Shown here piece after piece: positions 51,605 to 64,000 of a DNA stretch of 64,000 bases. The notes beneath the pieces were generated by a model. The model searched no databases, had not been told where the DNA came from, and was given only the letters and a program-made list of their open reading frames with translations. Within the stretch, counting starts at the first letter, position 1, and each line of letters begins with the position of its first letter. Position numbers and translations under genes: made by a program. The stretch is from a virus (lineage: Duplodnaviria; Caudoviricetes), in IMG/VR virus record IMGVR_UViG_3300037067_027643, positions 32,001 through 96,000 of that record. One strand, 5' to 3'.

Positions 51605-52901
51605 TCATAATTCACAAAATTTATTAATATTTCTCAAACTTGTTAATTCTGTAGTTAATTGTTTCTTTGTATTTGGTGTTTCTAATACCGCTTTATTTGT
51701 ATCTACATTAAATGAAACTAATTTCCAAACATATCCACGATTCTTAGCCCATGATACATGGTATTTTCGTCCAATTATATATTCTTTTGGTATATCTTTT
51801 AATTCTGTCATATTTTATCCAAAATTAATCATACCTTCTGGATATTTCTTCCAAAATTTAACCAATTGTTTTATTGCTTCTTGTTTTAAAATATTTCTAT
51901 CAGTTTTATCAAAACAAGTAGAAGTATAATAAATATTATCATCATTATCTTCTAAATATTTTAACGTTTCTTCTAACGAAAATAAAATATCATCTGGATA
52001 ATCTCCTATACGAAATACATCATGTGGTAAATCGTTAGAAGAAATATAAAATATTTGTTTTTTACAATTATATGAAGTTACATTATAATTTGATGTATGA
52101 TACTTATTATATATAGCAATCTCACATAATCCTTTTTTAACAATTTTTAATTGTCTTTCAACAATAGCTTTTTGTTTAATTCCATAATCGATAGTCCATT
52201 CTGGATATGTTTCTAATAATTCTAAATCTATTTTATCTCTATGATTTATCATATTATCATAAAACTTAATAGATCTTTTATATGTATTAATAACATTATT
52301 TCTAACTTTATCTTTGCTTATATTATACGGTTTAAAAAACCAAGTATGACATCCCATATTATTTATTTTTAATTATTATTTAAACGGATTAAACCCACTA
52401 TATCTCAAATCATTTACATTTGCTATTCTACTATCATCTACTATAGTTTCTTCATTTGTTACTATTACAGAATCTTCTACATCACACCAATATTCTTCTG
52501 GTAAATTTTTATCAATATTAAACTTTTGATATAAAAATTCAGATATAGGTTCTTGTTTAACTCCATTTTCAAAATATACAACCTCTCTATAATCTCCAAT
52601 TTTAAAAATATTTTCTTTTAAAAATGGAGTATAAAACCTTTTTACATACTGACCTATGTACTTAATGTATTGTCTGTAATTAGTTTTGTTATTCATATTT
52701 ATTTTAATGATTAAATGACTCTTTATATGTATGACCACAATTTTTACATTTATATTCTACTCTTGTTATATATAAATTATAATTTCTTAATTTTCTACTA
52801 AACTGTTTAATTTCATTTGATAAAGAAACAGTTTCACGACTAATTTCTTTAAATTGACAAAATCCAAAGAAACATAAAATATTTTTAATTAATTGTATCA
52901 T
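51605..52901 (-). CDS. run of hypothetical genes (51605-51811, 51815-52357, 52376-52738, 52704-52901)
   Basis: Packed ORFs downstream of rtcB. Confidence 0.6.
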
Positions 52902-54283
52902 AAATTTAATATTTTTTTATTATTTTTACGTTCTTCTCTTTCCTGTTTCATTTTCTTATTAGCTTTTCTATCTTTCCATGATTCTCCTTCACTACTGTCT
53001 TTGATATTCAATATAGGTTTTACTCTATCAATTATTTCAATAGTAGGTTCCAATAATAGTTCAATTAATTCACTGTCTTTATAAGATTGTGGGCTTTCAT
53101 CTAATGTACCTTTACAAACAGAAGTTGAATAAATCCCTTCCATAGACTTTTTAAAATCATCTAAATTTACTGTTTCTTTTGCTTTAGTTCTACTCATTAT
53201 TCTACCGGCTCCATGAGCACAACTGTAATTCCAATCTGGATTAGATTTACCGACAGCGATAACCATTCCATCTCTCATATTAAATGGTATAATCATCTTT
53301 TTATCTTTGTAAGATGCTATTGCTCCTTTACGAATTATAAAATCATTAAAATCGACATAATTGTGAATTGACTCTATTACTTCATCAAATTTAGTAATAT
53401 TTAAAACTTCTTGAATAATATCTAACATTGTTTTTCTATTCCAAACTGCATACTGTTGAGCAAATATCATATCAAATAAATAGTTTATTAAATATTCATC
53501 TTGTAAGTATTCTCGATCTATTCCTATACCAAACTTTTTTTTAAGTGAATCAATTTTATTTGGTATCTCTTTCTTATCAACTGTATTTAATACAATTTCA
53601 TTTAATCGTTTACTGTAATTATTAGAAGATCCATTCATTTGTTTTTTAGCTTGATTTATCCAATATTCTGCTACCTTTAAACCAAAGTTTCTACTTCCAG
53701 AATGAATGGTTACATAATAATCTGTAAGTGCTTGATTTACACCTATTTCAAGAAAGTGATTGCCTCCACCCATTGACCCAATACTATTAAAAAACTTCTT
53801 GATATTCATTTTAATATCTTTTAATTTTTTAATTAACCATTGTTCACTATATAATGGAGCTACATAATTTGTATTATATTTAACATTAAATGCTTTTACA
53901 AACTTATCTGCTATTATCTGTACATCATTGTATGGAATATCAGTAAAAACAGGACTTTTATGTTCATTAAATCCCATTGGAATTCTATGTCTGATTTCCT
54001 TATTTATTTTTTCTAAATCTAAATTAGAAGCATTTGGAAACTTTCCACTAATGAGACCACAGCCAATATCAACGCCTATATAGCTGGGTGTTAAGTAGTT
54101 ACCTAATTCCATTGTAAATCCAATACAAATTCCTTTACCAAAATGAGCATCCGGTTGAATTCTTACTTTAAGTCCTTTTGATATTGGAGAATTGATAATC
54201 GAATATATTTGAGAAATTACTTCCTCCTCTACATTATCAATGAATATTTTTGCTGTTGTATATTTCCCTGTTAATTCTATCAT
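52898..54283 (-). CDS. rtcB: RNA ligase RtcB
   Basis: PDAHFG, GVDIGCG, GGGNHF, HSGSR, HNY, RKGA, HGAGR, DESPQSYK. Confidence 0.95.
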   Translation of the reverse strand: MIELTGKYTTAKIFIDNVEEEVISQIYSIINSPISKGLKVRIQPDAHFGKGICIGFTMELGNYLTPSYIGVDIGCGLISGKFPNASNLDLEKINKEIRHRIPMGFNEHKSPVFTDIPYNDVQIIADKFVKAFNVKYNTNYVAPLYSEQWLIKKLKDIKMNIKKFFNSIGSMGGGNHFLEIGVNQALTDYYVTIHSGSRNFGLKVAEYWINQAKKQMNGSSNNYSKRLNEIVLNTVDKKEIPNKIDSLKKKFGIGIDREYLQDEYLINYLFDMIFAQQYAVWNRKTMLDIIQEVLNITKFDEVIESIHNYVDFNDFIIRKGAIASYKDKKMIIPFNMRDGMVIAVGKSNPDWNYSCAHGAGRIMSRTKAKETVNLDDFKKSMEGIYSTSVCKGTLDESPQSYKDSELIELLLEPTIEIIDRVKPILNIKDSSEGESWKDRKANKKMKQEREERKNNKKILNL

Positions 54284-55282: not shown

Positions 55283-56195
55283 TTTATTTTGAGAAAAGAC
55301 TGAAAATATTTTAAAACAGCTACGTCTTTCATCTTAGCTTCTACTATTATAACCACATCTTTACCTAATGTATCCACTGGTTCATAAATATAATCAGCAT
55401 GTGATTGTTTACTCAATTTTTATCTACAACATTTTCAAATAACAATTTACTACTAGAATGATGAACGGTTGGAATTATATGTTTTGGCCATGTATTATAT
55501 GATAGCAAAAATGCTTCTTTGTATGTTAACTTACCCGAATTAATCTTATAATGTAATGAGTCAAATACAATTGGAATTCCTATTTGTTCATGTATAGCAA
55601 ATAAATCTTGAACTGTAAACATATTACATTTATCATCATTTTCTACAGTCAATCTTTTTTGAACATTCTTATCTAATCTATTGAAGTTTTCACAAAATCT
55701 ATCAATAGCACTGGTTTTATCTCCATAGCTTGCGCCTACATGAACATTTATCTTGGTATTATTATCAGCATTAAAACTCATTAAATCAAATATTCGGCTT
55801 GTAGCATTTAGTTCTAATACAGTTTTATCAACTACATCCTTTTTATTACTAGCTAAAACATTGAATGGTCCGGGATGAAAGGAAAGTCTAACATTGTTAT
55901 TTCTACAATAATCTCCAATAGTTTTTAATTCTTGAACGATTGTTTTATAATCTGGTAAATCTTCAAATCGATAAAATGTTTTTAAGGGAAAGAAGTCATC
56001 TGGAAGTCGATAAGCAAATATACCATTATCAACGTTCCATTTTAAAATAATTTTTAAATCTTGTATGTTTTTTATGATTAAATCATTAACAGCTTGTACT
56101 CCTTTAATACCAAAACTTTTTCTTGTAATGGTATGGCCAGTCTTACAGTCTGGAATTGATAAATTTATACAAGCATATCCGAAGATTTGTTTCAT
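55270..56195 (-). CDS. uvsE: UV damage endonuclease, frameshifted near 55415
   Basis: GYACIN, RLSFHPG, NVHVG, LTVENDD, PIVFDSLH, HHSSS; the conserved tail SHADYI...IVEAKMKD is in the -1 frame past the TGA at 55413. Confidence 0.85.
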
Positions 56196-56199
56196 ATTA

Positions 56200-57113
56200 T
56201 TACTTTACTGTTTTAATCCAATATCTATATTTTAGATTTTTAGCATGTTTTAAACCTTCTTTGCTTTTTTCTAATTGTTCATTCCAATAACTAATTAAAT
56301 TTTCTTTAGCATATTCAAATGTATCAAATGATGTTGTACTAGAAACTATATCTAAATCATAAAGAAACTCAGAGAAATCTTCTAATGTACCTATAAATCC
56401 TTCATCATAACTAATATAAAAAAGGTTTATTTCTTCTTCTGTAAATGTATCTAAAGACGATGACATATTATTCGATTATTAATTTTCCAAATACTTTTTT
56501 AAGTTTGGGTTTATCATTTACATAATCCATTAATTGAATATGATTTGGAAGCATTTCAATATTGTTTAAGTATTTTTGTGCAATATTATTAGCTCTTATT
56601 ACTAACAAATGTGCATACAAAAGACATATTTTTTGTTCTTCCATATTCCAACCAGTATAAGGTTCATCAAACTCCTCCAAAATTTCTAATGTTCCCAATT
56701 CTCCAACAAACATTTTAATAAACTTAGCAACCCTTGATGAATATTTATTTTCTTCCTCTAACTGAACTAATAAAGAATTAAATTTTTCCAATAAAACATC
56801 AAAGTTTCCTACTGGTTTAATATCTGATAATTCATATATGGTTGTTTTCATTATTTAATAATTTATTTACTACATTAATAGCATCCTTGAGTAAAATAGC
56901 TGTTTCTGTATTTCTATAAGCTATCTCAATAAAATATTTATTACAATCCTTGAATATTTCTTCTATGTTAGCAGCTGTTTTGTTAGTATATTCTTTAATC
57001 CATTCATCTTCATCTAACTCTCCTTGATTATAACTTGGATACATACCTTTAATTTCGCCAGCTTTAAAAGCATTTCTTAAATCTTCTTCTGTATATGTTT
57101 TCATAATTGACAT
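56200..57113 (-). CDS. three hypothetical genes (56200-56466, 56468-56851, 56832-57113)
   Basis: Packed ORFs behind the promoter at 57138-57169. Confidence 0.6.
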
Positions 57114-57137
57114 TTATTTTATTAATTTTTAAAAGTA

Positions 57138-57169
57138 CAAAGATAATAAAAAATTTTGATATAAACAAA
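57138..57169 (-). promoter_or_regulatory. Bacteroidota primary-sigma-type promoter
   Basis: TTTG-N20-TATCTTTG. Confidence 0.7.
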
Positions 57170-57199
57170 TTTATTTTTTAAGGAGGAAAAATAAAGTAG

Positions 57200-57271
57200 A
57201 GCCCATTTCTGGAATTGAACCAGAATATATAGTTTTGCGGACTACTGACTAAACCATTCATCCAAATGGGC
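57200..57271 (-). tRNA. tRNA-Cys(GCA)
   Basis: Cloverleaf; anticodon arm GTAGT-CCGCAAA-ACTAT. Confidence 0.85.
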
Positions 57272-57278
57272 ATTTTTG

Positions 57279-57365
57279 CATACGTTGTAGGATTTGGACC
57301 CACGAGGAAGTATAAACTTCAATAGTTTTGGAGACTATCGCCTTCGACCACTTGGCTAAACGTAT
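57279..57365 (-). tRNA. tRNA with CCA (Trp) anticodon and long variable arm
   Basis: ATAGT-CTCCAAA-ACTAT; variable arm GAAGT-TTAT-ACTTC; G73. Confidence 0.8.
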
Positions 57366-57378
57366 GTATATCAATTAG

Positions 57379-57459
57379 TTGCGAGAGAGGGACTTGAACC
57401 CTCGAGGCTTACGCAATGGGATATGAGCCCATCCTGATACCAACTTCAGTCATCTCGCA
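57379..57459 (-). tRNA. tRNA-Met(CAT), initiator-like, with extended variable region
   Basis: ATGGG-CTCATAT-CCCAT (three G-C pairs); 12-nt variable region. Confidence 0.8.
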
Positions 57460-57465
57460 ATATAT

Positions 57466-58563
57466 TTATATTTCTAAAATTACATCTTTATGATCTAAAA
57501 TTAATTTGAAATTATATCCATGTTCTTTATAAGCTTTTAATTTATCTTTCATGTTTTGTTCATTGTATGTATAATTACTTTTTATTTCTACAATTAAATT
57601 TGTGTCTGGTAAATAAAAATCGGGTATTGCTGTTCTTTGTTTTAATAATTGTGTATCCCAATATGAAATTCTTAATTTTTCAACTTCATAATTAATTTTA
57701 TCTTTATCTAATTGGTTAGCATATTCTAATTCATACCCACTTCTATAAAATATTTGTTTATTATTCCAAGTAGTATGATATCCATGTTTATAATGTGAAT
57801 TTTTATTAATTACATTTAATTTTCCATGAATTATAGCATTTCCAGTACTTTCAGAAAAACATCGTAATTTAATATTAAAATAATTTATCACTTTATTAAA
57901 ATTTGATAAAGAATATCCATATTTCTCTGACATATCTGAAGTACTTAATTTTTCATCATAATAGTCTTCATATAGCATAATTCGAATTCGTTCAAATTCT
58001 TCGTAATAATTTTTGGTTCCTAATACATTTTTATCAAATCCAAAGTATTTTATTAAATTTGGAATTATTTGATATCGTTTACAAATTTCTGGATGTTTAC
58101 ATTGACCTTTTATTGATCCACACATTTTACAATCAACATTATTAAATCTTTTTCTTTGATATTCTAATTTACAAATATTACATAAACATTTTTTAATACT
58201 ATTTCTTTTATTAACAATAATATCGCTTCCGCATTTAACACATTTAGCTTCTTTTGTTTCTAAATTATTATCGTTTTTTGTACTATATTTATGAGAACAA
58301 TACGAAGAACAAAATCTACCACTACCATACGAACCATCTATTTCTATACCACATTCTTCACAATATAATTGCTTTATTTCAATTATTTTATTAGCATTAA
58401 TTATTGCCTTTTTCTTCTCTTTTGTTATTCTACATAATTCTATTTGTTCTTTTGTTATTATTCTACTTCTACTACATGATTTTGAACAAAATTTTCCAGT
58501 TCCATAAGAACCATTATGTTCATGTCCACATTTTTCACAAAATTTTTTATTTTCCATATCCAA
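57466..58563 (-). CDS. homing endonuclease (Zn-finger repeats, TnsA-like PD-(D/E)XK) inside tRNA array 1
   Basis: Two CExCG..GSYGxGxFCS units; YRSGYE; IPDFYLP...VEIKS. Confidence 0.8.
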   Translation of the reverse strand: MDMENKKFCEKCGHEHNGSYGTGKFCSKSCSRSRIITKEQIELCRITKEKKKAIINANKIIEIKQLYCEECGIEIDGSYGSGRFCSSYCSHKYSTKNDNNLETKEAKCVKCGSDIIVNKRNSIKKCLCNICKLEYQRKRFNNVDCKMCGSIKGQCKHPEICKRYQIIPNLIKYFGFDKNVLGTKNYYEEFERIRIMLYEDYYDEKLSTSDMSEKYGYSLSNFNKVINYFNIKLRCFSESTGNAIIHGKLNVINKNSHYKHGYHTTWNNKQIFYRSGYELEYANQLDKDKINYEVEKLRISYWDTQLLKQRTAIPDFYLPDTNLIVEIKSNYTYNEQNMKDKLKAYKEHGYNFKLILDHKDVILEI

Positions 58564-58651
58564 ACTATTTTACATTTTATATATAAATAGTAAATAGTTT
58601 GAAAATAAATTCCGCAATATTTCAAAGAACAATTTTAATTTTATAAATTTG

Positions 58652-58724
58652 AGCCAATAGAAGGAATCCAACCCTCAACCCTTCCGGTACAAACGGATTG
58701 CTCTAGCAATTGAGCTATACTGGC
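58652..58724 (-). tRNA. tRNA-Thr(TGT)
   Basis: TCCG-TTTGTAC-CGGA; acceptor GCCAGTA/TATTGGC. Confidence 0.8.
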
Positions 58725-58741
58725 ATTACATTATTATAGGG

Positions 58742-58818
58742 CGGTCTATAAGGAATTTGAATCCTTCTGAACATTCCGAGTGACAGTCGGACAGCCACAC
58801 CTAGCAGCTCCATAGACC
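58742..58818 (-). tRNA. tRNA-Asp(GTC)
   Basis: TCCGA-CTGTCAC-TCGGA; G73. Confidence 0.85.
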
Positions 58819-58842
58819 AATTATATATTATATTAATTTTAG

Positions 58843-58915
58843 TGAGACTATGAGGAATCAAACCCCAATCCTATGAACCGTACTCATAAATTCTATTCAA
58901 TTGAACTATAGTCCC
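58843..58915 (-). tRNA. tRNA-Arg(ACG)
   Basis: TATGA-GTACGGT-TCATA. Confidence 0.8.
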
Positions 58916-58930
58916 AAATTAATAATAAAG

Positions 58931-59003
58931 TATTCGGTACGGGAGTTGAACCCGTATGTCAAGATTGAAGGTCTTGAATCCTTACCAATTAGATGAACCG
59001 AAC
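58931..59003 (-). tRNA. tRNA-Glu(TTC)
   Basis: CAAGA-CCTTCAA-TCTTG. Confidence 0.85.
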
Positions 59004-59019
59004 AAATGTCTTGTATATG

Positions 59020-59092
59020 TAGCCAAAGATGGAATTGAACCATCGCCCTGTATCTTATAAGGATACTGCTCTTACCACTGAGCTACTTGGCT
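59020..59092 (-). tRNA. tRNA-Ile(TAT)
   Basis: GTATC-CTTATAA-GATAC; A73. Confidence 0.85.
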
Positions 59093-59103
59093 ATATTTAA
59101 TAG

Positions 59104-59178
59104 TGGAATCTATGGTATTCGAAACCATCTGCTGTTCTCAGTGCAAATGAGATGACCACCCTAGCAGTCCCAGACCCC
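59104..59178 (-). tRNA. tRNA-Ala(TGC)
   Basis: TCTCA-TTTGCAC-TGAGA; G3:U70. Confidence 0.88.
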
Positions 59179-59189
59179 GTTTATATTAG

Positions 59190-59264
59190 TTGGTGTAATT
59201 GGATTTGAACCAATGACCTCAATCTTATCAGGATTGTCGTCTGACCGGGCTGACATATACACCA
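59190..59264 (-). tRNA. tRNA-Ile(GAT)
   Basis: CAATC-CTGATAA-GATTG. Confidence 0.88.
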
Positions 59265-59274
59265 ATATAATTAG

Positions 59275-59346
59275 TGGAACTAGATGGATTTGGACCACCG
59301 ACCACTTCCTCTTCAGGGAAGCACTCTACCACTGAGTTATAGTTCC
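59275..59346 (-). tRNA. tRNA-Phe(GAA)
   Basis: CTTCC-CTGAAGA-GGAAG. Confidence 0.88.
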
Positions 59347-59356
59347 ATTGTATTTG

Positions 59357-59430
59357 TAGGAATACCAGGATTCAAACCTGGGATCTAGTGGATGTAAACC
59401 AATCGCTTTAATCAACTAAGCTATATTCCT
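59357..59430 (-). tRNA. tRNA-Val(TAC)
   Basis: TGG-TTTACAT-CCA; acceptor AGGAATA/TATTCCT. Confidence 0.82.
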
Positions 59431-59440
59431 ATGTTATCAG

Positions 59441-59513
59441 CGACTCTAATACGGAATGATCGTATAACCTACCGGTTAACAGCCGGTTGCTCTACCAATT
59501 GAGCTATAGAGTC
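59441..59513 (-). tRNA. tRNA-Asn(GTT)
   Basis: ACCGG-CTGTTAA-CCGGT; atypical T-loop ATCATTC. Confidence 0.82.
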
Positions 59514-59522
59514 ATATATTAG

Positions 59523-59594
59523 TGCCTTCGAATCGACTTGAACGATTACTCTTACATCTTAAAAGGATGAGATTTTACATTAAACTACGAAGGC
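59523..59594 (-). tRNA. tRNA-Lys(TTT)
   Basis: CATC-CTTTTAA-GATG. Confidence 0.82.
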
Positions 59595-59599
59595 AATTG

Positions 59600-59682
59600 T
59601 GGAGGAAGAGTGATTTGAACACCCATAGCTTTTTGCGACGGATTTACAGTCCGCTGATTTCTACCCACTTACCATTTCCTCC
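59600..59682 (-). tRNA. tRNA-Tyr(GTA)
   Basis: GCGGA-CTGTAAA-TCCGT; long variable arm. Confidence 0.88.
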
Positions 59683-59702
59683 ATTATATATTATTATCTT
59701 TG

Positions 59703-59774
59703 AGCGAGATAACGGGTTCAAACCGTTGACAAAGCATTGGAAGTGCCTCATGTTATCAACTACACCAATCTCGC
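59703..59774 (-). tRNA. tRNA-Gly(TCC)
   Basis: AGGCA-CTTCCAA-TGCTT; U73. Confidence 0.88.
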
Positions 59775-59796
59775 TTAATTCATTTATATCAATACG

Positions 59797-59806
59797 TCAA
59801 AGAACA
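59797..59806 (-). promoter_or_regulatory. boxA-like antitermination element (also 58622-58630, 61217-61225, 61607-61615)
   Basis: GTTCTTTGA occurs four times in spacers of the tRNA arrays. Confidence 0.65.
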
Positions 59807-59823
59807 TTGTTTTTAATTCAAAT

Positions 59824-59863
59824 AAAAAACCCAACTAGTTTTTTAATTTTCTGGTTGGGTTTT
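59824..59863 (-). terminator. attenuator terminator upstream of tRNA array 1
   Basis: AAAACCCAACCAG/CTAGTTGGGTTTT stem ending in T6, between the leader ORF and the first tRNA. Confidence 0.8.
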
Positions 59864-59896
59864 ATATATTTTATTATAATATATTTTTTAATAAAC

Positions 59897-60052
59897 TCAC
59901 CAACCAACATCTTTTGCTTCTTCTCCAAAACGATAATCATTATTTGTTTTTGCTATAAAAATACAACCGTCCACAAACATCATATTTTTATCTATAATGC
60001 TATTGTTCCAACATGTATTATTAATGACTGTATTATTTCGCTTTGTTTTCAT
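59897..60052 (-). CDS. candidate attenuation leader peptide 1 (51 aa)
   Basis: Not in ORF track. MKTKRNNTVINNTCWNNSIIDKNMMFVDGCIFIAKTNNDYRFGEEAKDVGW with A-rich initiation region; its 3' end is complementary to the terminator 5' arm. Confidence 0.75.
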   Translation of the reverse strand: MKTKRNNTVINNTCWNNSIIDKNMMFVDGCIFIAKTNNDYRFGEEAKDVGW

Positions 60053-60084
60053 TTTATTTTTTGTTATTACTTCTTTTTATTTTA

Positions 60085-60213
60085 TATAAATAGTTAAAAA
60101 TAAATTAAAAATTTTCAATTTCAAATTATTTTACAAAATTAAGTAAATTTTTTCACTCTACCAAATTTATTTTTAATTATTTTAATATACAACATTATTT
60201 TCAAATAAACAAA
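60085..60213 (-). promoter_or_regulatory. three stacked promoter motifs upstream of leader 1
   Basis: TTTG-N20-TATATTAA (60182-60213), TTTG-N20-TAATTTTG (60134-60165), ACTATTTATA (about 60085-60094). Confidence 0.65.
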
Positions 60214-60232
60214 TAAAATTTAATTGTAATAT

Positions 60233-60997
60233 TTATTTATCCCAAATATTATTAAATTTTGAATAATCAATATCTTCGTATGGATATTTATCATTAAAAT
60301 ATTCCAATTTTACTATATCAAATGTATTTAATAATTTTTTATCATCTATCAATAAAATTTTTATATTTGTTTCATGAATACATTTCCACATTTTACATTT
60401 ATCATTTTCACTCATCCAACCTTTTACTTCAATATATACATCAAAATCAGGCAAATAAAAATCTGGCGTATAAGAACGAGATTTATCAAATTTGACTCTT
60501 ATTCTATCCCAATTTATTTTTAATTCATTTAATCGTTCCGCTACTGTTTTTTCCCATTTTCCTTGAACATTAATTATTTTATATCCATTATATATCGAAT
60601 ACCACAATATATTATTTCCTTTATTTTCTTCTAAAAATTTTATCCTATGTTCTGACATTTTCTTTCTTGATTCAATTGTATGGTTTTTATTATTCCAATA
60701 TGGTATTATTTCGCCATTTTCAAATTTCTGTTTAAGATTAATACTAGTATTTTTAAGTCTATCATCATTTTCTTTTGTTAATCCCTTATTCCATTTCATA
60801 TTTTCTTTTGATTCTTCGGGAAAGTCTAAAAATTTTTCTTTACCCGATTTTATTTTTCCAGAACTATATGATTTTTTTAAACCATTACTATTTTTTAACC
60901 TATTTGCTGGACATTGATTAAAATGCTCTGAACAACAATATTTACCATTTTTTAATTGATATTTTCCTTCTTGACCGCAATTATAAGCACACAACAT
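60233..60997 (-). CDS. homing endonuclease (Zn motif, NUMOD3-like, PD-(D/E)XK) between the tRNA arrays
   Basis: CAYNCG..CCS..CP; KNHTIESRKKMS; YTPDFYLP...IEVKGW. Confidence 0.8.
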   Translation of the reverse strand: MLCAYNCGQEGKYQLKNGKYCCSEHFNQCPANRLKNSNGLKKSYSSGKIKSGKEKFLDFPEESKENMKWNKGLTKENDDRLKNTSINLKQKFENGEIIPYWNNKNHTIESRKKMSEHRIKFLEENKGNNILWYSIYNGYKIINVQGKWEKTVAERLNELKINWDRIRVKFDKSRSYTPDFYLPDFDVYIEVKGWMSENDKCKMWKCIHETNIKILLIDDKKLLNTFDIVKLEYFNDKYPYEDIDYSKFNNIWDK

Positions 60998-61046
60998 AAT
61001 TTTTACTATTTGTTTACTTATAAATAGTAAAAATTATTATTTTTCG

Positions 61047-61120
61047 TATCCACAGAAGGAGTCGAACCCTCAACCATTGGGGTAGAATCCCAATATTCTA
61101 TCCAGTTGAACTATGTGGAC
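61047..61120 (-). tRNA. tRNA-Arg(TCT)
   Basis: TTGGG-ATTCTAC-CCCAA. Confidence 0.85.
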
Positions 61121-61127
61121 ATTTTGG

Positions 61128-61201
61128 GGTGGCACTCGAGGATTGAACTCAAATCAACAGATTCACAGTCTGCCCGCTTAACCATTTAGCGTAATGTCAC
61201 C
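61128..61201 (-). tRNA. tRNA-His(GTG)
   Basis: GCAGA-CTGTGAA-TCTGT; G-1:C73. Confidence 0.88.
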
Positions 61202-61237
61202 ATTTAAAAATTATATTCAAAGAACTATTGTTATCTG

Positions 61238-61314
61238 TCTAGGCGGTGCGATTCGAACGCACGTTATGTCGTGTTTCCAAAACACGCTAGTTTAGCCATC
61301 TGCTGTACGCCTAG
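61238..61314 (-). tRNA. tRNA-Pro(TGG)
   Basis: CGTGT-TTTGGAA-ACACG; C1:G72, A73. Confidence 0.85.
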
Positions 61315-61320
61315 TTATTG

Positions 61321-61406
61321 CGGAAAAATAAGGATTCGAACCTTAGGGACTGTTACATCCACGTCATTAGCAGTGACGCACAATAGACCAACTCTGTCAT
61401 TTTTCC
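61321..61406 (-). tRNA. tRNA-Ser(GCT)
   Basis: CGTCA-CTGCTAA-TGACG; long variable arm; G73. Confidence 0.9.
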
Positions 61407-61413
61407 ATTATAG

Positions 61414-61487
61414 CAGCCAAAACTGGGCTCGAACCAATACTCCGACAGTCAAAGTGTCGTATGCTTTACCGATTACATTATTTGGCT
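61414..61487 (-). tRNA. tRNA-Gln(TTG)
   Basis: CGACA-CTTTGAC-TGTCG. Confidence 0.88.
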
Positions 61488-61494
61488 ATAAAAG

Positions 61495-61581
61495 CGGAAG
61501 GTTAGGGACTCAAACCCCAGATACGGTATTAGCGTATTACTAATTTTCAAGATTAGCTCTTCGTTCAGCCAGACACCTTCC
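61495..61581 (-). tRNA. tRNA-Ser(TGA)
   Basis: CTAAT-CTTGAAA-ATTAG; long variable arm; G73. Confidence 0.82.
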
Positions 61582-61626
61582 ATTTATTATTTACAATACA
61601 TTATTTTCAAAGAACTTATATTCAAT

Positions 61627-61662
61627 AAAAAACCCTATTTACTTTTGATTTAAACAGGGGTT
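61627..61662 (-). terminator. attenuator terminator upstream of tRNA array 2
   Basis: CCCTGTTTA/TAAATAGGG stem followed by T6. Confidence 0.78.
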
Positions 61663-61688
61663 GTAATGTTTTTATATATTATACTATA

Positions 61689-61808
61689 TCATCTATAAAT
61701 ATCACAATACACCTGTTCCCATTGACTATGTCTTGGTTGTAAGCACGATGGTCTACTATTAATTGAGGGTTGATGTTGATGATTATATGTAACGATATTT
61801 ATTTTCAT
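61689..61808 (-). CDS. candidate attenuation leader peptide 2 (39 aa)
   Basis: Not in ORF track. MKINIVTYNHQHQPSINSRPSCLQPRHSQWEQVYCDIYR. Confidence 0.78.
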   Translation of the reverse strand: MKINIVTYNHQHQPSINSRPSCLQPRHSQWEQVYCDIYR

Positions 61809-61835
61809 TATTTTTGTTTTATTCTTTTAATTTTA

Positions 61836-61848
61836 TATAAATAGTAAA
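61836..61848 (-). promoter_or_regulatory. TTTTACTATTTATA putative late promoter (copies or near-copies at about 11905, 31337, 36301, 58583, 60085, 61019 on minus; 38203, 41059, 49782 on plus)
   Basis: Recurs in intergenic DNA, oriented with the downstream gene on either strand. Confidence 0.65.
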
Positions 61849-61870
61849 AAAATTTTAAAAAGTTATTTTG

Positions 61871-62975
61871 TTAATATTTAAGATATTCTCCATCATTTTC
61901 TTTTCCTGTTCCTAAGTATTCTTTAAATCCAGTAATAATTGACATTGCTCGATCCATACAAGGTTTTATTTTTTCATCTTCTCCCCATTTTTCAATTTTA
62001 TATTGTAATGGTTTATAATTTCTTAAAGAAATATCTGATTTTGTAATTAATCCATAGTTATTAGATTCTGTTTTAACTATTGTAAAAGAAACAAATGGAA
62101 TTGATTCTACTCTACCAATTATATGTTCATTCTTATTATTTAAAATAGATAAATCTTGTTCTTTATCTTCAATATTAACTAAACCAGTATATATTTCTCC
62201 TTCTACAATACTATATCTATCTTCTAAAGATTTATATTCGGTTTTATATTTTGTCCAGTTAATTGTTATCATAGTTTCGATTTATTCTACAAAATTAAGT
62301 AAATTATTTCAATCTACCAAATTTATTTTTGATTATTTTAAATGACAAGTACAAGTTCCTATTTCTATTCCATTATCATCATACAATATACCTCTATCAT
62401 GACATTGAAAACAATTTTCTTCTTTTTTGACTTCTTGTTCTATCTCATCAATTACACTATATATCTCACCGACCCATGTTCTTACTGGGTCGTTTAAATA
62501 ACCACCACTTACATCATCGTCAATAAGGCATTCATATTCTATATTCTTTGCTACATCAGCTAATCTTTTTATTTGTTCTTTGGTTATATTCATATTATTT
62601 ATCTTAAAAAATACCACACCACCGTTTGTTGTTTGTTAAACTAAAAATATAAAAATCAAATTATTATGAAAAAAATGATGTTTGGTGGTGTGATATATGT
62701 TTTTATTTTATTTATTTATAAATTTCGTTTAATTCAAATTTATCTCCATGACAACAACTAAATCCATCGTCTAAATCATCCATTTCACAAAATTTTATAT
62801 TATCTTTTAATCTCCATTTACAATAATCACATGTAAATTCGTGACTTGATAAGTTTATACAATATTTAGATTTTATTGGATTACAAAAACCATCTTTACT
62901 AATACAATTATCACATGATTTTTCTATTGACATATATTTTATTTTTAATATACAAAATCTTTTATTGATTTCCAA
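61871..62975 (-). CDS. three hypothetical genes (61871-62272, 62333-62617, 62712-62975 Cys-rich)
   Basis: ORF track; true starts of the last two are probably internal Mets. Confidence 0.6.
62290..62321 (-). promoter_or_regulatory. Bacteroidota primary-sigma-type promoter
   Basis: TTTG-N20-TAATTTTG. Confidence 0.75.
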
Positions 62976-62976
62976 A
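62945..62976 (-). promoter_or_regulatory. TTTTGTATATTAAAA promoter variant (also at about 1832, 6636, 8890, 16130, 19445, 24175, 32562, 38240 on minus; 46015 on plus)
   Basis: TTTG-N20-TATATTAA here and at 8890-8921; motif sits directly upstream of gene starts. Confidence 0.65.
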
Positions 62977-62983
62977 TTTATTT

Positions 62984-63989
62984 CTATCTTTCTATAACTA
63001 CATATCCATTTACAATCTTTGGATTCTCATCTTTTAAAATCTTCATGATCTTATTAATATCATATCCATTTACTGGTTGTACAACTATTTTATTAATACC
63101 ATACATTTTTATATGTCTTATATCATAATCACCTACAGGAATGGTTTTAAAATCAACTCGTTTATATCCAGACTTCTTTAACCCAGCTTTAATTAATCGT
63201 TTAGATATCTGTTGAACAGAGAGTTGAGAAGTGACTTCTTTGAGAATGGTTTGTTTGTATATATCTTTTAGTTTCATTATTTTATTTACTTCTATAAATG
63301 TAAATCAATCATTTTTAATTTTTTATCTTTAATCATAAAATGTCCGAAATTTTTACCTTTATAATATTTACTCATTGACTCATAACTATATATTGGATAT
63401 TTATTTTCATACATTAAATCGGTAGCTACTATTTTAACTTTAGCTATTTTAGGTAACATCACATCTATATACCTTTCTAATTGTACAGATAGTTTATTTG
63501 GAAAAATTTCAATATGATAATCATTATTAAAAAATCTATAAGTTTTATCTTTTACTTTTATAGTATTTAAAAAGAATTGAATCATATCTGTGTAATATTG
63601 CTTATCAACATCTAATTTAGTTACATTATTTTGTAATTCGTTTAATAATGTTTTTAGTTTCATCATTTTATTTTTCCTTTTAAATATGGGTTAAATGATA
63701 TTTCATTTTGAATAAATTCTTTCCGTATAATAGATTTATTTTTATAATTCCGAATAAAATTATCAAATTTACTTTTATTAAAACTCGATTCTAATGCAGT
63801 TCTTGATTTATAATCTATAAATTTTTCTATATCATCGTTTACATCTTCAACATCTAAATTTTTAAATTCGTGTTTTAAATATTTTTCTGCAATTTCACTC
63901 GCTATATAAATCATATCATCTATCTGTTCTTGTGTATAATTAGTATTACCGCTTTCATTAATACTATTATAAATATCTTTTAGTTTCAT
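62984..63989 (-). CDS. three small genes sharing an MKLK...(L/I)(N/K)E N-terminus (62984-63277, 63292-63666, 63663-63989)
   Basis: MKLKDIYKQTILKE, MMKLKTLLNE, MKLKDIYNSINE. Confidence 0.7.
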
Positions 63990-64000
63990 ATCTTAATTCC

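What the first reader, a model, noticed from the sequence alone, without database searches (positions are those of the whole stretch)
61582..61850. Second independent attenuator: H/Q/P/S/R-rich leader before the Ser, Gln, Ser, Pro, His, Arg array
Seen: promoter motif, 39-codon ORF (61808-61689), terminator (61627-61662), boxA-like element, then tRNAs Ser(TGA), Gln, Ser(GCT), Pro, His, Arg(TCT). Codons 10-29 read HQHQPSINSRPSCLQPRHSQ, 16 of 20 being those five residues, which is far from the K/I/N/L-rich proteome here. Ser uses both TCN and AGT, matching both Ser tRNAs, and Arg is always AGA. The segment right after this block (AACAGG..TTGTGAT) pairs with the terminator 5' side (ATTACAA..CCTGTT), the classical geometry. 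The two leaders show no obvious sequence similarity, yet each matches its own array, so they act as mutual controls.
Basis: partly seen in the sequence, partly recalled or inferred. Interest (0 to 1): 0.94.

Follow-up and report, generated by a model that had tools for sequence, protein, structure and literature searches.

The report
Leader-peptide attenuator gating phage tRNA array
A 286-kb phage of Bacteroidota-type hosts places six tRNA genes (Ser, Gln, Ser, Pro, His, Arg) behind a tiny translated "test" gene written mostly in those five amino acids and followed by a switchable transcription stop, so it probably makes these tRNAs only when ribosomes read those codons slowly; I found no published account of this trp-operon-style control for tRNA genes.

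Summary
The 39-codon ORF has 16 of 20 consecutive residues in H/Q/P/S/R. That is the most extreme of 583 small ORFs in the 286-kb genome and exceeds every 20-residue window of its large proteins. The ORF's 3' part pairs with the terminator's 5' arm (-14.1 kcal/mol; 4 of 1000 shuffles).

The decisive support is comparative. Distant relatives, including the published 735-kb phage LR756501.1, carry the same cassette before different tRNA arrays. Each leader is spelled in its own array's amino acids: QQQQQ before Gln tRNAs, a Leu-rich one before five Leu tRNAs, SKHSKSFKFW before Lys/Trp/Ser/Phe/His. Each also holds a copy of its terminator's 3' arm near its stop codon, with three-way covariation between homologues.

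The GTTCTTTGA element after the terminator matches the boxA-like element of Bacteroidota rRNA-operon spacers.

I read this as a ribosome-mediated attenuator giving demand-controlled tRNA supply (confidence 0.8). It rests on sequence analysis only; no RNA data exist. I found no published precedent. This scan's earlier notes report the same phenomenon on at least eight other genomes.

The parts
62291..62336 (-). Host-type (Bacteroidota sigma-A style) promoter-like site, TTTG-N19-TAATTTTG, upstream of the 133-aa gene. A ~92% identical copy lies at 60115-60175, upstream of leader 1.
   Evidence: The pattern occurs 60 times in the genome against 13 in shuffles. Promoter function is inferred.
61836..61852 (-). 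Phage intergenic promoter-type motif (T-run + ACTATTTATA), 37 nt before the leader ATG.
   Evidence: The same motif lies 15-60 nt before about 30 ordinary genes, both homing-endonuclease genes and both leaders. Promoter function is inferred.
61689..61808 (-). Leader ORF of 39 codons plus TGA.
   Evidence: A-rich upstream context without Shine-Dalgarno, like other genes here.
61722..61781 (-). Control block, codons 10-29: 16 of 20 residues are His/Gln/Pro/Ser/Arg.
61701..61720 (-). Antiterminator upstream arm (segment 2), GGGAACAGG..TTGTGAT, in codons 30-36. It is an imperfect copy of the terminator's 3' arm.
   Evidence: -14.1 kcal/mol, 4 of 1000 shuffles. Also the MFE structures.
61651..61667 (-). 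Shared arm (segment 3), ATTACAACCCCTGTTTA. It pairs either with segment 2 or with the terminator's 3' arm.
61627..61662 (-). Intrinsic terminator: 9-pair hairpin followed by T6.
   Evidence: -9.1 kcal/mol.
61607..61615 (-). boxA-like GTTCTTTGA, 34 nt before the first tRNA.
   Evidence: 5 copies in 286 kb, 4 of them in the tRNA region on the transcribed strand; the extended form lies in the 16S-23S spacers of Bacteroidota.
61046..61581 (-). Array 2: tRNA-Ser(TGA), Gln(TTG), Ser(GCT), Pro(TGG), His(GTG), Arg(TCT).
61217..61225 (-). Second GTTCTTTGA, between tRNA-Pro and tRNA-His.
59775..60052 (-). Sister cassette: 51-codon leader 1, hairpin + T-run, GTTCTTTGACGTATTGA, before tRNA-Gly..Thr (and Met, Trp, Cys after an inserted endonuclease gene).
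   Evidence: 49 of 50 residues belong to its array's amino acids.

Best explanation
This is a ribosome-mediated (leader-peptide) transcription attenuator that sets how much of tRNA array 2 is made.

Proposed mechanism:
1. Transcription starts at the phage promoter-type motif (61845) and/or reads in from the host-type promoter at about 62320.
2. A ribosome begins translating the 39-codon leader while RNA polymerase moves on.
3. If aminoacyl-tRNAs for His, Gln, Pro, Ser (both codon boxes) or Arg-AGA are scarce, the ribosome stalls in codons 10-29. Segment 2 (61720-61701) stays free and pairs with segment 3 (61667-61651). The terminator hairpin cannot form, and the polymerase reads through.
4. 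The polymerase then passes the boxA-like GTTCTTTGA. I infer that this recruits the host Nus/rRNA-type antitermination factors for processive, Rho-resistant transcription of the untranslated array. The six tRNAs are transcribed.
5. If those codons are read quickly, the ribosome runs over segment 2 toward the TGA. Segment 3 then pairs with the 3' arm, and transcription stops at the T-run (about 61627-61632).

The products relieve the stall, so this is a negative-feedback, on-demand supply. A second cassette does the same for the other 16 tRNAs.

Shown: the anatomy, the statistics, the alternative pairings and the conservation of the architecture.

Inferred: translation of the ORF, promoter use, the direction and size of the response, and Nus recruitment.
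For: (1) Composition. 16 of 20 residues fall in the array's five amino acids. This is rank 1 of 583 small ORFs and above every window of the large proteins. Over the whole leader the count is 18 of 38, p = 2.8e-5.

(2) Codon level. 17 of 38 codons are readable by the six anticodons against a 14.5% background, p = 7e-6. Ser splits 2 TCR + 2 AGT, matching the two Ser tRNAs. Arg is AGA x3 here, but CGA and CGT in leader 1, whose array holds tRNA-Arg(ACG).

(3) Leu, the only amino acid without a phage tRNA, occurs once in the 88 leader residues, p = 0.005.

(4) Antiterminator. The ORF pairs with the terminator's 5' arm at -14.1 kcal/mol (4 of 1000 shuffles). The upstream arm lies in codons 30-36, just after the control block. 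The free RNA also folds a 1:2 helix plus the terminator, as trpL does.

(5) Only 15 small-ORF-plus-terminator pairs exist in the genome. The two that precede tRNA arrays are the compositional outliers.

(6) Independent cassettes in relatives. There are five leader types in IMG/VR contigs and four in LR756501.1. Each fits its own array best: the identity assignment ranks 1 of 120 and 1 of 24 permutations. In 6 of the 7 cassettes tested, the ORF-to-5'-arm duplex is significant (p <= 0.015) and sits in the last third of the ORF or over the stop codon.

(7) Three-way covariation among homologous leaders. The sets (antiterminator arm / 5' arm / 3' arm) are GTTCGGA / TCCGAAC / GTTCGGA in L015, GTTTGGA / TCCAAAC / GTTTGGA in L045, and TTCGGGG / CCCCGAA / (A)GTTTGGGG in LR756501. 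In L015 and L045 the antiterminator arm sits in different reading-frame registers.

(8) GTTCTTTGA follows the terminator in both cassettes. Its 17-nt form is identical in LR756501, and it lies between tRNA-Ala and 23S in Bacteroidota rRNA operons.
Against: - There are no RNA, 3'-end or ribosome data, and no orthologue of this particular leader to test its conservation.
- The whole-region fold is not unusually stable (z = -1.05).
- In an equilibrium model the terminator wins for stalls beyond about codon 16.
- In the 'before the 3' arm emerges' model the switch is moderate and reverts at the stop codon (0.76 / 0.34 / 0.70). The argument therefore needs kinetic coupling, which I cannot compute.
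- 20 of the 38 residues after Met1 are not in the array-2 set, so stalls at array-1 codons near the start could also induce this array.
- A sigma-70-like TTGTGA-N18-TATAAT overlaps the end of the ORF and recurs before the leader-1 hairpin. An internal promoter cannot be excluded.
- Leader 1's antiterminator is not significant (566 of 1000 shuffles).
Confidence: 0.8

Rival explanations
1. The promoter, small ORF and terminator form an unrelated mini-unit or insulator that ends upstream transcription. The tRNAs are made from a separate promoter, for example the TATAAT-containing stretch at 61707-61678 or the GTTCTTTGA region. On this view the composition match is coincidence.
For: A sigma-70-like site scoring 10 of 12 lies at 61707-61678, and a similar T(T/G)GTGA-N18-TATAAT lies before the leader-1 hairpin. 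Gene-terminator-promoter order is common in this genome.
Against: - A promoter there would fire straight into the terminator.
- The host type indicated uses TTTG/TAnnTTTG promoters, and no such site lies between the T-run and the tRNA.
- Coincidence would have to recur in 11 cassettes, each with its own matched leader and ORF-embedded antiterminator.
Confidence: 0.06
2. The leader acts as RNA and is not translated. Its codon-like triplets bind uncharged tRNA anticodons directly, as in a T-box, and this stabilises the antiterminator.
For: The sensed molecules would be tRNAs, as in T-boxes, and an antiterminator/terminator pair is present.
Against: - No T-box or other Rfam family matches at E <= 1.
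- The enrichment exists only in the frame set by an ATG, and a stop codon is placed at or near the antiterminator arm in every cassette.
- Runs such as QQQQQ and 15-amino-acid leaders fit ribosome stalling better than a single specifier.
Confidence: 0.04
3. The leader is translated and does sense decoding speed, but the output differs from classical attenuation. It could act through Rho-dependent termination or polarity, RNA processing or stability, or with the opposite sign.
For: Fold models give only a moderate intrinsic-terminator switch for this leader. A boxA-type element, which counteracts Rho in rRNA operons (my own knowledge), lies right after it.
Against: A canonical hairpin + T6 is present, and a significant competing helix sits in the classical position. 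The Gln cassette of the relatives has a textbook chain of alternative hairpins.
Confidence: 0.08
4. The ORF encodes a small functional H/Q/P/S/R-rich peptide unrelated to tRNA control.
For: It has an ATG at the usual distance from a promoter-type motif.
Against: A phmmer search against 1.84 billion representatives finds only low-complexity stretches in long proteins. The equivalent ORFs in relatives share no sequence, only the rule of matching their array.
Confidence: 0.02

Closest known systems
Multivalent leader-peptide attenuators of enterobacterial amino-acid operons (ilvGMEDA leader sensing Ile/Leu/Val, thr leader sensing Thr/Ile; also trpL, hisL, pheL, leuL) - from established knowledge; modelling in PMC1183508
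   Same: A short translated ORF rich in regulatory codons; an intrinsic terminator; a mutually exclusive antiterminator whose upstream arm is masked by a ribosome finishing the ORF; and sensing of several amino acids by one leader.
   Different: The controlled genes are tRNA genes, not biosynthetic enzymes, so the product restores the sensed species directly. Five (here) to fifteen (leader 1) amino acids are listed. The system is phage-borne and in a Bacteroidota-type setting. A boxA-type element follows. No Rfam leader family matches.
Leader-peptide attenuation of aminoacyl-tRNA synthetase genes (E. coli pheST/pheM, from my own knowledge; His-codon leader before hisS/hisZ paralogues in bacilli, PMC2965389)
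   Same: Ribosome stalling reports on the charged-tRNA supply and controls a gene of the translation apparatus.
   Different: Those control a protein enzyme for one amino acid. Here the RNA genes themselves are controlled, in blocks.
T-box riboswitches
   Same: They sense tRNA status and switch between terminator and antiterminator upstream of translation-related genes.
   Different: T-boxes bind tRNA directly, with one specifier codon and a conserved T-box motif, and need no translation. No such motif or Rfam match is found here.
rRNA-operon boxA / Nus-factor antitermination (rrn leader and 16S-23S spacer), and lambda nut boxA
   Same: The 9-mer GTTCTTTGA here, and the 17-mer GTTCTTTGACGTATTGA of the sister cassette, equal the element between tRNA-Ala and 23S in Bacteroidota rRNA operons. 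It sits at the head of, and inside, an untranslated RNA operon.
   Different: It is on a phage tRNA array and sits downstream of an attenuator. Factor binding is untested.
Phage tRNA clusters in general (T4, T5, vibriophages, huge phages such as LR756501.1)
   Same: Clustered tRNA genes, interrupted by homing-endonuclease genes, with a tRNA ligase (RtcB) nearby.
   Different: My searches found no published account of demand-sensing leaders in front of such clusters.

Membership tests
Ribosome-mediated (leader-peptide) transcription attenuator | Short ORF with a start codon in the transcribed leader, upstream of the controlled genes | tested here: met
   39-codon ATG..TGA ORF at 61808-61689, 37 nt after a promoter-type motif and 107 nt before the first tRNA.
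Ribosome-mediated (leader-peptide) transcription attenuator | Regulatory codons enriched and cognate to what the operon supplies | tested here: met
   16 of 20 residues, rank 1 of 583 small ORFs. 17 of 38 codons are readable by the array's anticodons against 14.5% background. The cross-matrix shows each leader fits its own array best.
Ribosome-mediated (leader-peptide) transcription attenuator | Intrinsic terminator between the leader ORF and the controlled genes | tested here: met
   9-pair hairpin (-9.1 kcal/mol) + T6 at 61662-61627. The simple scanner missed it only because its loop limit is 8 and this loop is 9.
Ribosome-mediated (leader-peptide) transcription attenuator | Antiterminator helix that excludes the terminator, with its upstream arm placed so that a ribosome completing the ORF masks it | tested here: met
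   -14.1 kcal/mol duplex, 4 of 1000 shuffles, arm in codons 30-36 of 39. Masking lowers sequestration of the 5' arm from 0.76 to 0.34, but it returns to 0.70 with the ribosome exactly on the stop codon.
Ribosome-mediated (leader-peptide) transcription attenuator | Segment 1:2 helix (pause / anti-antiterminator) covering the regulatory codons | tested here: inconclusive
   The MFE of the free leader pairs nt 11-37 with nt 96-123 and keeps the terminator (P = 0.71). Masking codons 3-10 drops P(terminator) to 0.15 or less. No significance test or conservation is available.
Ribosome-mediated (leader-peptide) transcription attenuator | Controlled genes encode amino-acid biosynthesis or transport enzymes, or a synthetase | tested here: not met
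   The downstream genes are six tRNAs. This is why I class it as a new variant rather than a member of a described leader family.
Ribosome-mediated (leader-peptide) transcription attenuator | Termination in replete conditions and read-through on starvation for the cognate aminoacyl-tRNA | not testable with these tools
   No RNA run holds the sequence, and there is no cultured host.
Ribosome-mediated (leader-peptide) transcription attenuator | Conservation of the architecture with compensatory change in the helices | tested here: met
   Nine further leader types or copies in relatives and LR756501.1. Three-way covariation in the Lys/Trp/Ser/Phe/His family. No orthologue of this particular leader was found.
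T-box riboswitch | Stem I / specifier loop and the conserved T-box sequence (Rfam RF00230) | tested here: not met
   A permissive Rfam scan of 56500-64000 returns only tRNAs and chance plastid hits.
Rfam amino-acid leader families (His, Trp, Thr, Leu leaders etc.) | Match to the covariance model | tested here: not met
   No match at E <= 1.
rRNA-type boxA antitermination site | Sequence equal to the boxA-position element of the host group's rRNA operons | tested here: met
   GTTCTTTGACRTMTTGA hits at least 120 stretches. About 60 of the 80 listed are Bacteroidota. In 5 of 10 loci examined it lies between the spacer tRNAs and 23S. This cassette shares only the 9-mer core; the sister cassette shares all 17.
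rRNA-type boxA antitermination site | Non-random placement on an untranslated operon | tested here: met
   4 of the genome's 5 copies lie in the 4.4-kb tRNA region on the transcribed strand.
rRNA-type boxA antitermination site | Binding of NusB/S10 and resistance to Rho | not testable with these tools
   Needs biochemistry.

The most novel reading that the evidence does not exclude
Large phages of Bacteroidota run their tRNA genes as separate, demand-controlled feedback loops. Each block of tRNA genes sits behind a leader peptide that lists the block's amino acids. Depletion of those particular charged tRNAs, whether from codon-usage mismatch, host shut-off or host anticodon nucleases, then switches on exactly the replacement set. 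A hijacked rRNA-type boxA carries the polymerase through the untranslated array. Together the leaders of one phage partition the genetic code in the same way as its arrays.
Probability: 0.72. Interest if true: 0.9.

Novelty: new variant of a known kind. Interest (0 to 1): 0.88.

Why it matters
Why phages carry tRNAs, and when they use them, is a long-running question. The proposed answers include codon bias, host tRNA decay and escape from anticodon nucleases. A built-in sensor that reads the decoding speed of exactly the codons served by each array would show that phage tRNA supply is regulated by need. It would also make the question testable: the leaders name the limiting species.

It would extend classical attenuation in three ways: to RNA genes, to leaders listing 5-15 amino acids, and to Bacteroidota-type systems. 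One review in 2010 knew leader peptides only from Proteobacteria, Actinobacteria and a few Firmicutes (PMC2965389).

The cassettes are compact and modular: promoter, test ORF, switch, boxA. They could serve as reporters of tRNA charging. They also improve annotation, because these ORFs should not be called hypothetical proteins.

Tried and rejected
- Close relatives of this leader. BLAST against GenBank phages hit only tRNA-Arg. The neighbouring 133-aa protein has no relative in IMG/VR and a single 55% homologue among 5.8 billion proteins, on short contigs that end before any array.
- phmmer of the leader peptide against 1.84 billion representatives gave only low-complexity hits.
- RNA evidence: no RNA holder is listed. 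The one read-laying run showed only DNA contigs. A landfill run from another study carries the identical sequence 61213-62199, so there is no variation to analyse.
- Phages related through the DnaB-like helicase (34-47% identity) with tRNAs (L108, L109, L112) showed no leader cassettes. Some tRNA pairs in relatives (L050, L051, L053) also lack them. The arrangement is therefore not universal.
- Whole-region MFE z-score: not significant.
- Equilibrium terminator probabilities: dominated by A-U extensions of the terminators and hard to interpret.
- Sigma-70-type internal promoter: considered and kept as a minor rival.
- A degenerate tRNA-Leu hidden in the leader region: ARAGORN and Rfam find none.
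- Literature confirmation of the boxA string gave nothing useful, so I tested it on genomes instead.

Full report
WHAT IS THERE

The window is bases 32001-96000 of a 285,744-base IMG/VR virus record with 25% G+C. All 22 tRNA genes of the genome lie at window 57199-61581 on the minus strand. They cover every amino acid except Leu.

Reading the minus strand, the order is as follows:
- A repeated intergenic motif, T-run + ACTATTTATA, at 61852-61836.
- A 39-codon ORF at 61808-61689.
- A 9-pair hairpin + T6 at 61662-61627.
- GTTCTTTGA at 61615-61607.
- tRNA-Ser(TGA), Gln, Ser(GCT), Pro.
- A second GTTCTTTGA at 61225.
- tRNA-His and tRNA-Arg(TCT).
- The promoter-type motif again, then a homing-endonuclease-like gene (60997-60233).
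- A second cassette: motif, 51-codon ORF (60052-59897), hairpin + T-run, GTTCTTTGA (59805).
- Thirteen tRNAs, Gly to Thr.
- GTTCTTTGA (58630), the motif, a second endonuclease-like gene.
- tRNA-Met, Trp and Cys.

IS IT MORE THAN CHANCE?

Codons 10-29 give 16 of 20 residues in S/Q/P/H/R. These are exactly the amino acids of the six tRNAs that follow.
- Their summed frequency in the phage's large ORFs is 0.178, so the binomial tail is 2.4e-9.
- Without choosing a window after the fact, the ORF ranks first among all 583 ATG ORFs of 30-80 residues in the genome (16; next best 13). No 20-residue window in any ORF of 150 aa or more exceeds 12.
- Over the whole leader the count is 18 of 38 (p = 2.8e-5).
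- At codon level, 17 of 38 codons can be read by the six anticodons under ordinary wobble rules, against 14.5% genome-wide (p = 7e-6). The four Ser codons split two and two between the boxes read by the two Ser tRNAs.

The sister leader is the mirror image. 49 of its 50 residues belong to the 15 amino acids of its own arrays. It ranks first of 269 small ORFs, and only 18 of 51,930 windows in large proteins match it.

Arg follows the same split. Leader 1 uses CGA and CGT, and its array has tRNA-Arg(ACG). Leader 2 uses AGA three times, and its array has tRNA-Arg(UCU).

Leu, for which the phage has no tRNA, occurs once in the 88 leader residues (p = 0.005).

Only 15 small-ORF-plus-terminator pairs exist in the whole genome.

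THE SWITCH

The ORF's codons 30-36 (61720-61701) are complementary to 61667-61651, which includes the 5' arm of the terminator.
- RNAduplex gives -14.1 kcal/mol. Only 4 of 1000 dinucleotide shuffles of the ORF reach that value.
- The upstream arm is in effect an imperfect copy of the terminator's 3' arm.
- The free leader folds with nt 11-37 paired to nt 96-123 and the terminator intact. This is the trpL-like 1:2 / 3:4 state.

I modelled the transcript just before the terminator's 3' arm emerges. The terminator's 5' arm is sequestered:
- with probability 0.76-0.77 while a ribosome sits at codons 3-20;
- with probability 0.34 when it covers codons 28-35;
- with probability 0.70 again with the A site exactly on the stop codon.

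So the geometry is the classical one, but these simple models give a moderate switch, not a crisp one. The whole-region fold is unremarkable (z = -1.05). The argument for function therefore rests mainly on comparison.

COMPARATIVE EVIDENCE

The RtcB ligase gene 3 kb from the arrays led to distant relatives. These are IMG/VR fragments of much larger phages (RtcB 56-64% identical) and the published 735-kb genome LR756501.1.

Their tRNA arrays differ from ours. Many are nevertheless preceded by the same cassette, and each leader lists its own array:
- A 17-codon ORF containing QQQQQ comes before arrays of two and four tRNA-Gln. It has a chain of alternative hairpins that starts over the stop codon.
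- ..FSKHSKSFKFW.. and ..SKHSSSSKSFKFWF.. come before Lys, Trp, Ser, Phe, His arrays.
- An N/I/Y/C/M/E-rich ORF comes before Glu, Asn, Cys, Ile, Tyr, Met arrays.
- In LR756501.1, a Leu-rich ORF (7 Leu in 22) comes before five tRNA-Leu.
- Also there, ..INMIQEQMQQIQ.. comes before Met, Gln, Ile, Glu.
- ..SKHSKHFSSSSKWF.. comes before Trp, His, Phe, Lys, Ser.
- ..TPAPAVAFRRGTGTGTGTCVPAGCG.. comes before Arg, Thr, Val, Ala, Gly, Pro.

In a leader-by-array matrix of binomial scores, every leader fits its own array best. The true assignment is the best of 120 permutations for five independent classes, and the best of 24 within LR756501.1.

Each cassette holds a copy of its terminator's 3' arm in the last codons of the ORF or over the stop codon. 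The duplex with the 5' arm is significant in 6 of the 7 cassettes tested (p from 0.001 to 0.015). The exception is our leader 1.

The homologous Lys/Trp/Ser/Phe/His leaders show three-way covariation of antiterminator arm, 5' arm and 3' arm:

| Leader | Antiterminator arm | 5' arm | 3' arm |
|---|---|---|---|
| L015 | GTTCGGA | TCCGAAC | GTTCGGA |
| L045 | GTTTGGA | TCCAAAC | GTTTGGA |
| LR756501 | TTCGGGG | CCCCGAA | AGTTTGGGG |

In L015 and L045 the ORF-embedded arm sits in different codon registers. That points to selection on the RNA pairing.

This is what a functional attenuator family looks like. Chance, or a conserved peptide, would not give this pattern.

THE boxA-LIKE ELEMENT AND THE HOST

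GTTCTTTGA occurs five times in the 286-kb genome. Four copies are in the tRNA region on the transcribed strand.

The 17-mer of the sister cassette, GTTCTTTGACGTATTGA, is identical in an LR756501.1 cassette. About 60 of the 80 listed are Bacteroidota, although on uniform base composition I estimate about 280 random matches for the whole collection (my own arithmetic, no call). In five of ten loci examined, the match lies between the spacer tRNAs and the 23S gene of an rRNA operon. From my own knowledge, the second boxA of rRNA operons sits at that position.

Two further observations point the same way:
- TTTG-N18-21-TAnnTTTG sites are 4.6-fold enriched (60 against 13).
- Shine-Dalgarno sequences are absent.

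Together these indicate a Bacteroidota host. They suggest that read-through polymerases are converted to the rRNA-type antitermination mode for the untranslated array. That last step is inference.

MECHANISM AND RIVALS

I commit to demand-controlled tRNA supply by ribosome-mediated attenuation, with confidence 0.8. Slow decoding of His, Gln, Pro, Ser or Arg-AGA codons leaves the antiterminator in place. The array is transcribed, and the new tRNAs restore fast decoding and termination.

The nearby RtcB tRNA ligase fits a setting in which host tRNAs are damaged or run down, but that link is conjecture.

Rivals:
- An unrelated mini-unit plus a separate promoter (0.06).
- Translation-independent tRNA binding (0.04).
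- Translation-dependent control with a different output, such as Rho or processing (0.08).
- A functional peptide (0.02).

COMPARISON WITH WHAT IS KNOWN

The logic is that of the multivalent ilv and thr leaders, and of the leaders before pheST or hisS (PMC2965389; PMC1183508 for the model). Three things set this case apart: the controlled genes are tRNAs, the leaders list up to 15 amino acids, and the system is viral.

No Rfam leader or T-box model matches. Five full-text searches found no report of leader-peptide attenuation of tRNA genes. The library misses many subscription journals, so this is not proof of absence.

Earlier notes of this scan describe the same phenomenon on at least eight other genomes. 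It has its own array-specific leader and, newly tested here, the rRNA-spacer identity of the boxA-like element.

VERDICT

It is a new variant of a known kind of control. It is of high interest and still needs experimental proof.

Noticed in passing
window 60233-60997 (-) and 57466-58563 (-): Two homing-endonuclease-like genes split the tRNA cluster into three blocks. They have zinc-ribbon CxxC repeats and a C-terminal endonuclease-I / DUF7487-like domain with weak Pfam hits. Each has its own ACTATTTATA motif. Leader 1 also lists Met, Trp and Cys, the tRNAs now stranded behind the second insertion. This suggests the insertion is younger than the leader, or that the block is still one operon.
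   Followed up: partly
whole genome (G000); window 57199-61581: The phage has 22 tRNAs for 19 amino acids but none for Leu, although TTA-Leu is 8% of its codons. Both leaders avoid Leu (1 in 88 residues). LR756501.1, by contrast, has a five-gene Leu array with its own Leu-rich leader.
   Followed up: partly
window 62275-62336 (-) and 60115-60175 (-): Two copies (~92% identical, about 62 nt) of a Bacteroidota-type promoter region, TTTG-N19-TAATTTTG. One lies before the 133-aa gene upstream of leader 2. The other lies directly before the leader-1 cassette, which therefore has two promoter-type motifs in tandem.
   Followed up: partly
window 52898-54283 (-) and 55413-56195 (-): An RtcB RNA ligase (Pfam E = 8e-55; 56% identical to LR756501.1) and a UvdE UV-endonuclease lie just downstream of the tRNA cluster. 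RtcB next to regulated tRNA arrays hints at repair of cleaved tRNAs.
   Followed up: no
window 57278-57365, 57378-57459, 58739-58819 (-): tRNA-Trp (88 nt), tRNA-Met (82 nt) and tRNA-Asp (81 nt) are unusually long for their classes. ARAGORN finds no introns, so the extra length is probably in the variable arms.
   Followed up: partly
LR756501.1 (loci L114, L116, L117, L118): The published 735-kb phage genome, deposited without annotation, carries at least four leader / terminator / boxA-like cassettes whose peptides match Met-Gln-Ile-Glu, Leu, Trp-His-Phe-Lys-Ser and Arg-Thr-Val-Ala-Gly-Pro arrays.
   Followed up: yes
L053 (G001) and L119 (LR756501.1 690585-690737): Relatives carry tRNAs with anticodon CTA (amber suppressors), one of them duplicated. 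This suggests TAG reassignment in those phages. The present genome shows none, and its ORFs are open under code 11.
   Followed up: no
L050 and L051 (G002 about 321.0k, G001 about 230.8k): Two odd tRNA-like genes in relatives are preceded by a conserved structured region without any ORF, including a palindromic TTTGCAATTTGCAAATTGCAAATTT. This is a different, unexplained upstream element.
   Followed up: no
window 61213-62199: Contigs from a landfill metagenome (2018, a different study) are letter-for-letter identical to this groundwater-derived sequence. The same phage therefore occurs in two habitats.
   Followed up: partly
L046 / L047 (G003 about 61.9k, G002 about 58.5k) and L108 (G011): The element after the terminator there reads (A)TGCTCTTTGAAA or ATGATCTTTGAAA, close to the E. 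coli rrn boxA as I remember it. A helicase-related phage without leaders also has TGCTCTTTGAAA inside its tRNA array. boxA-type elements in phage tRNA arrays may therefore be wider spread than the leaders.
   Followed up: no
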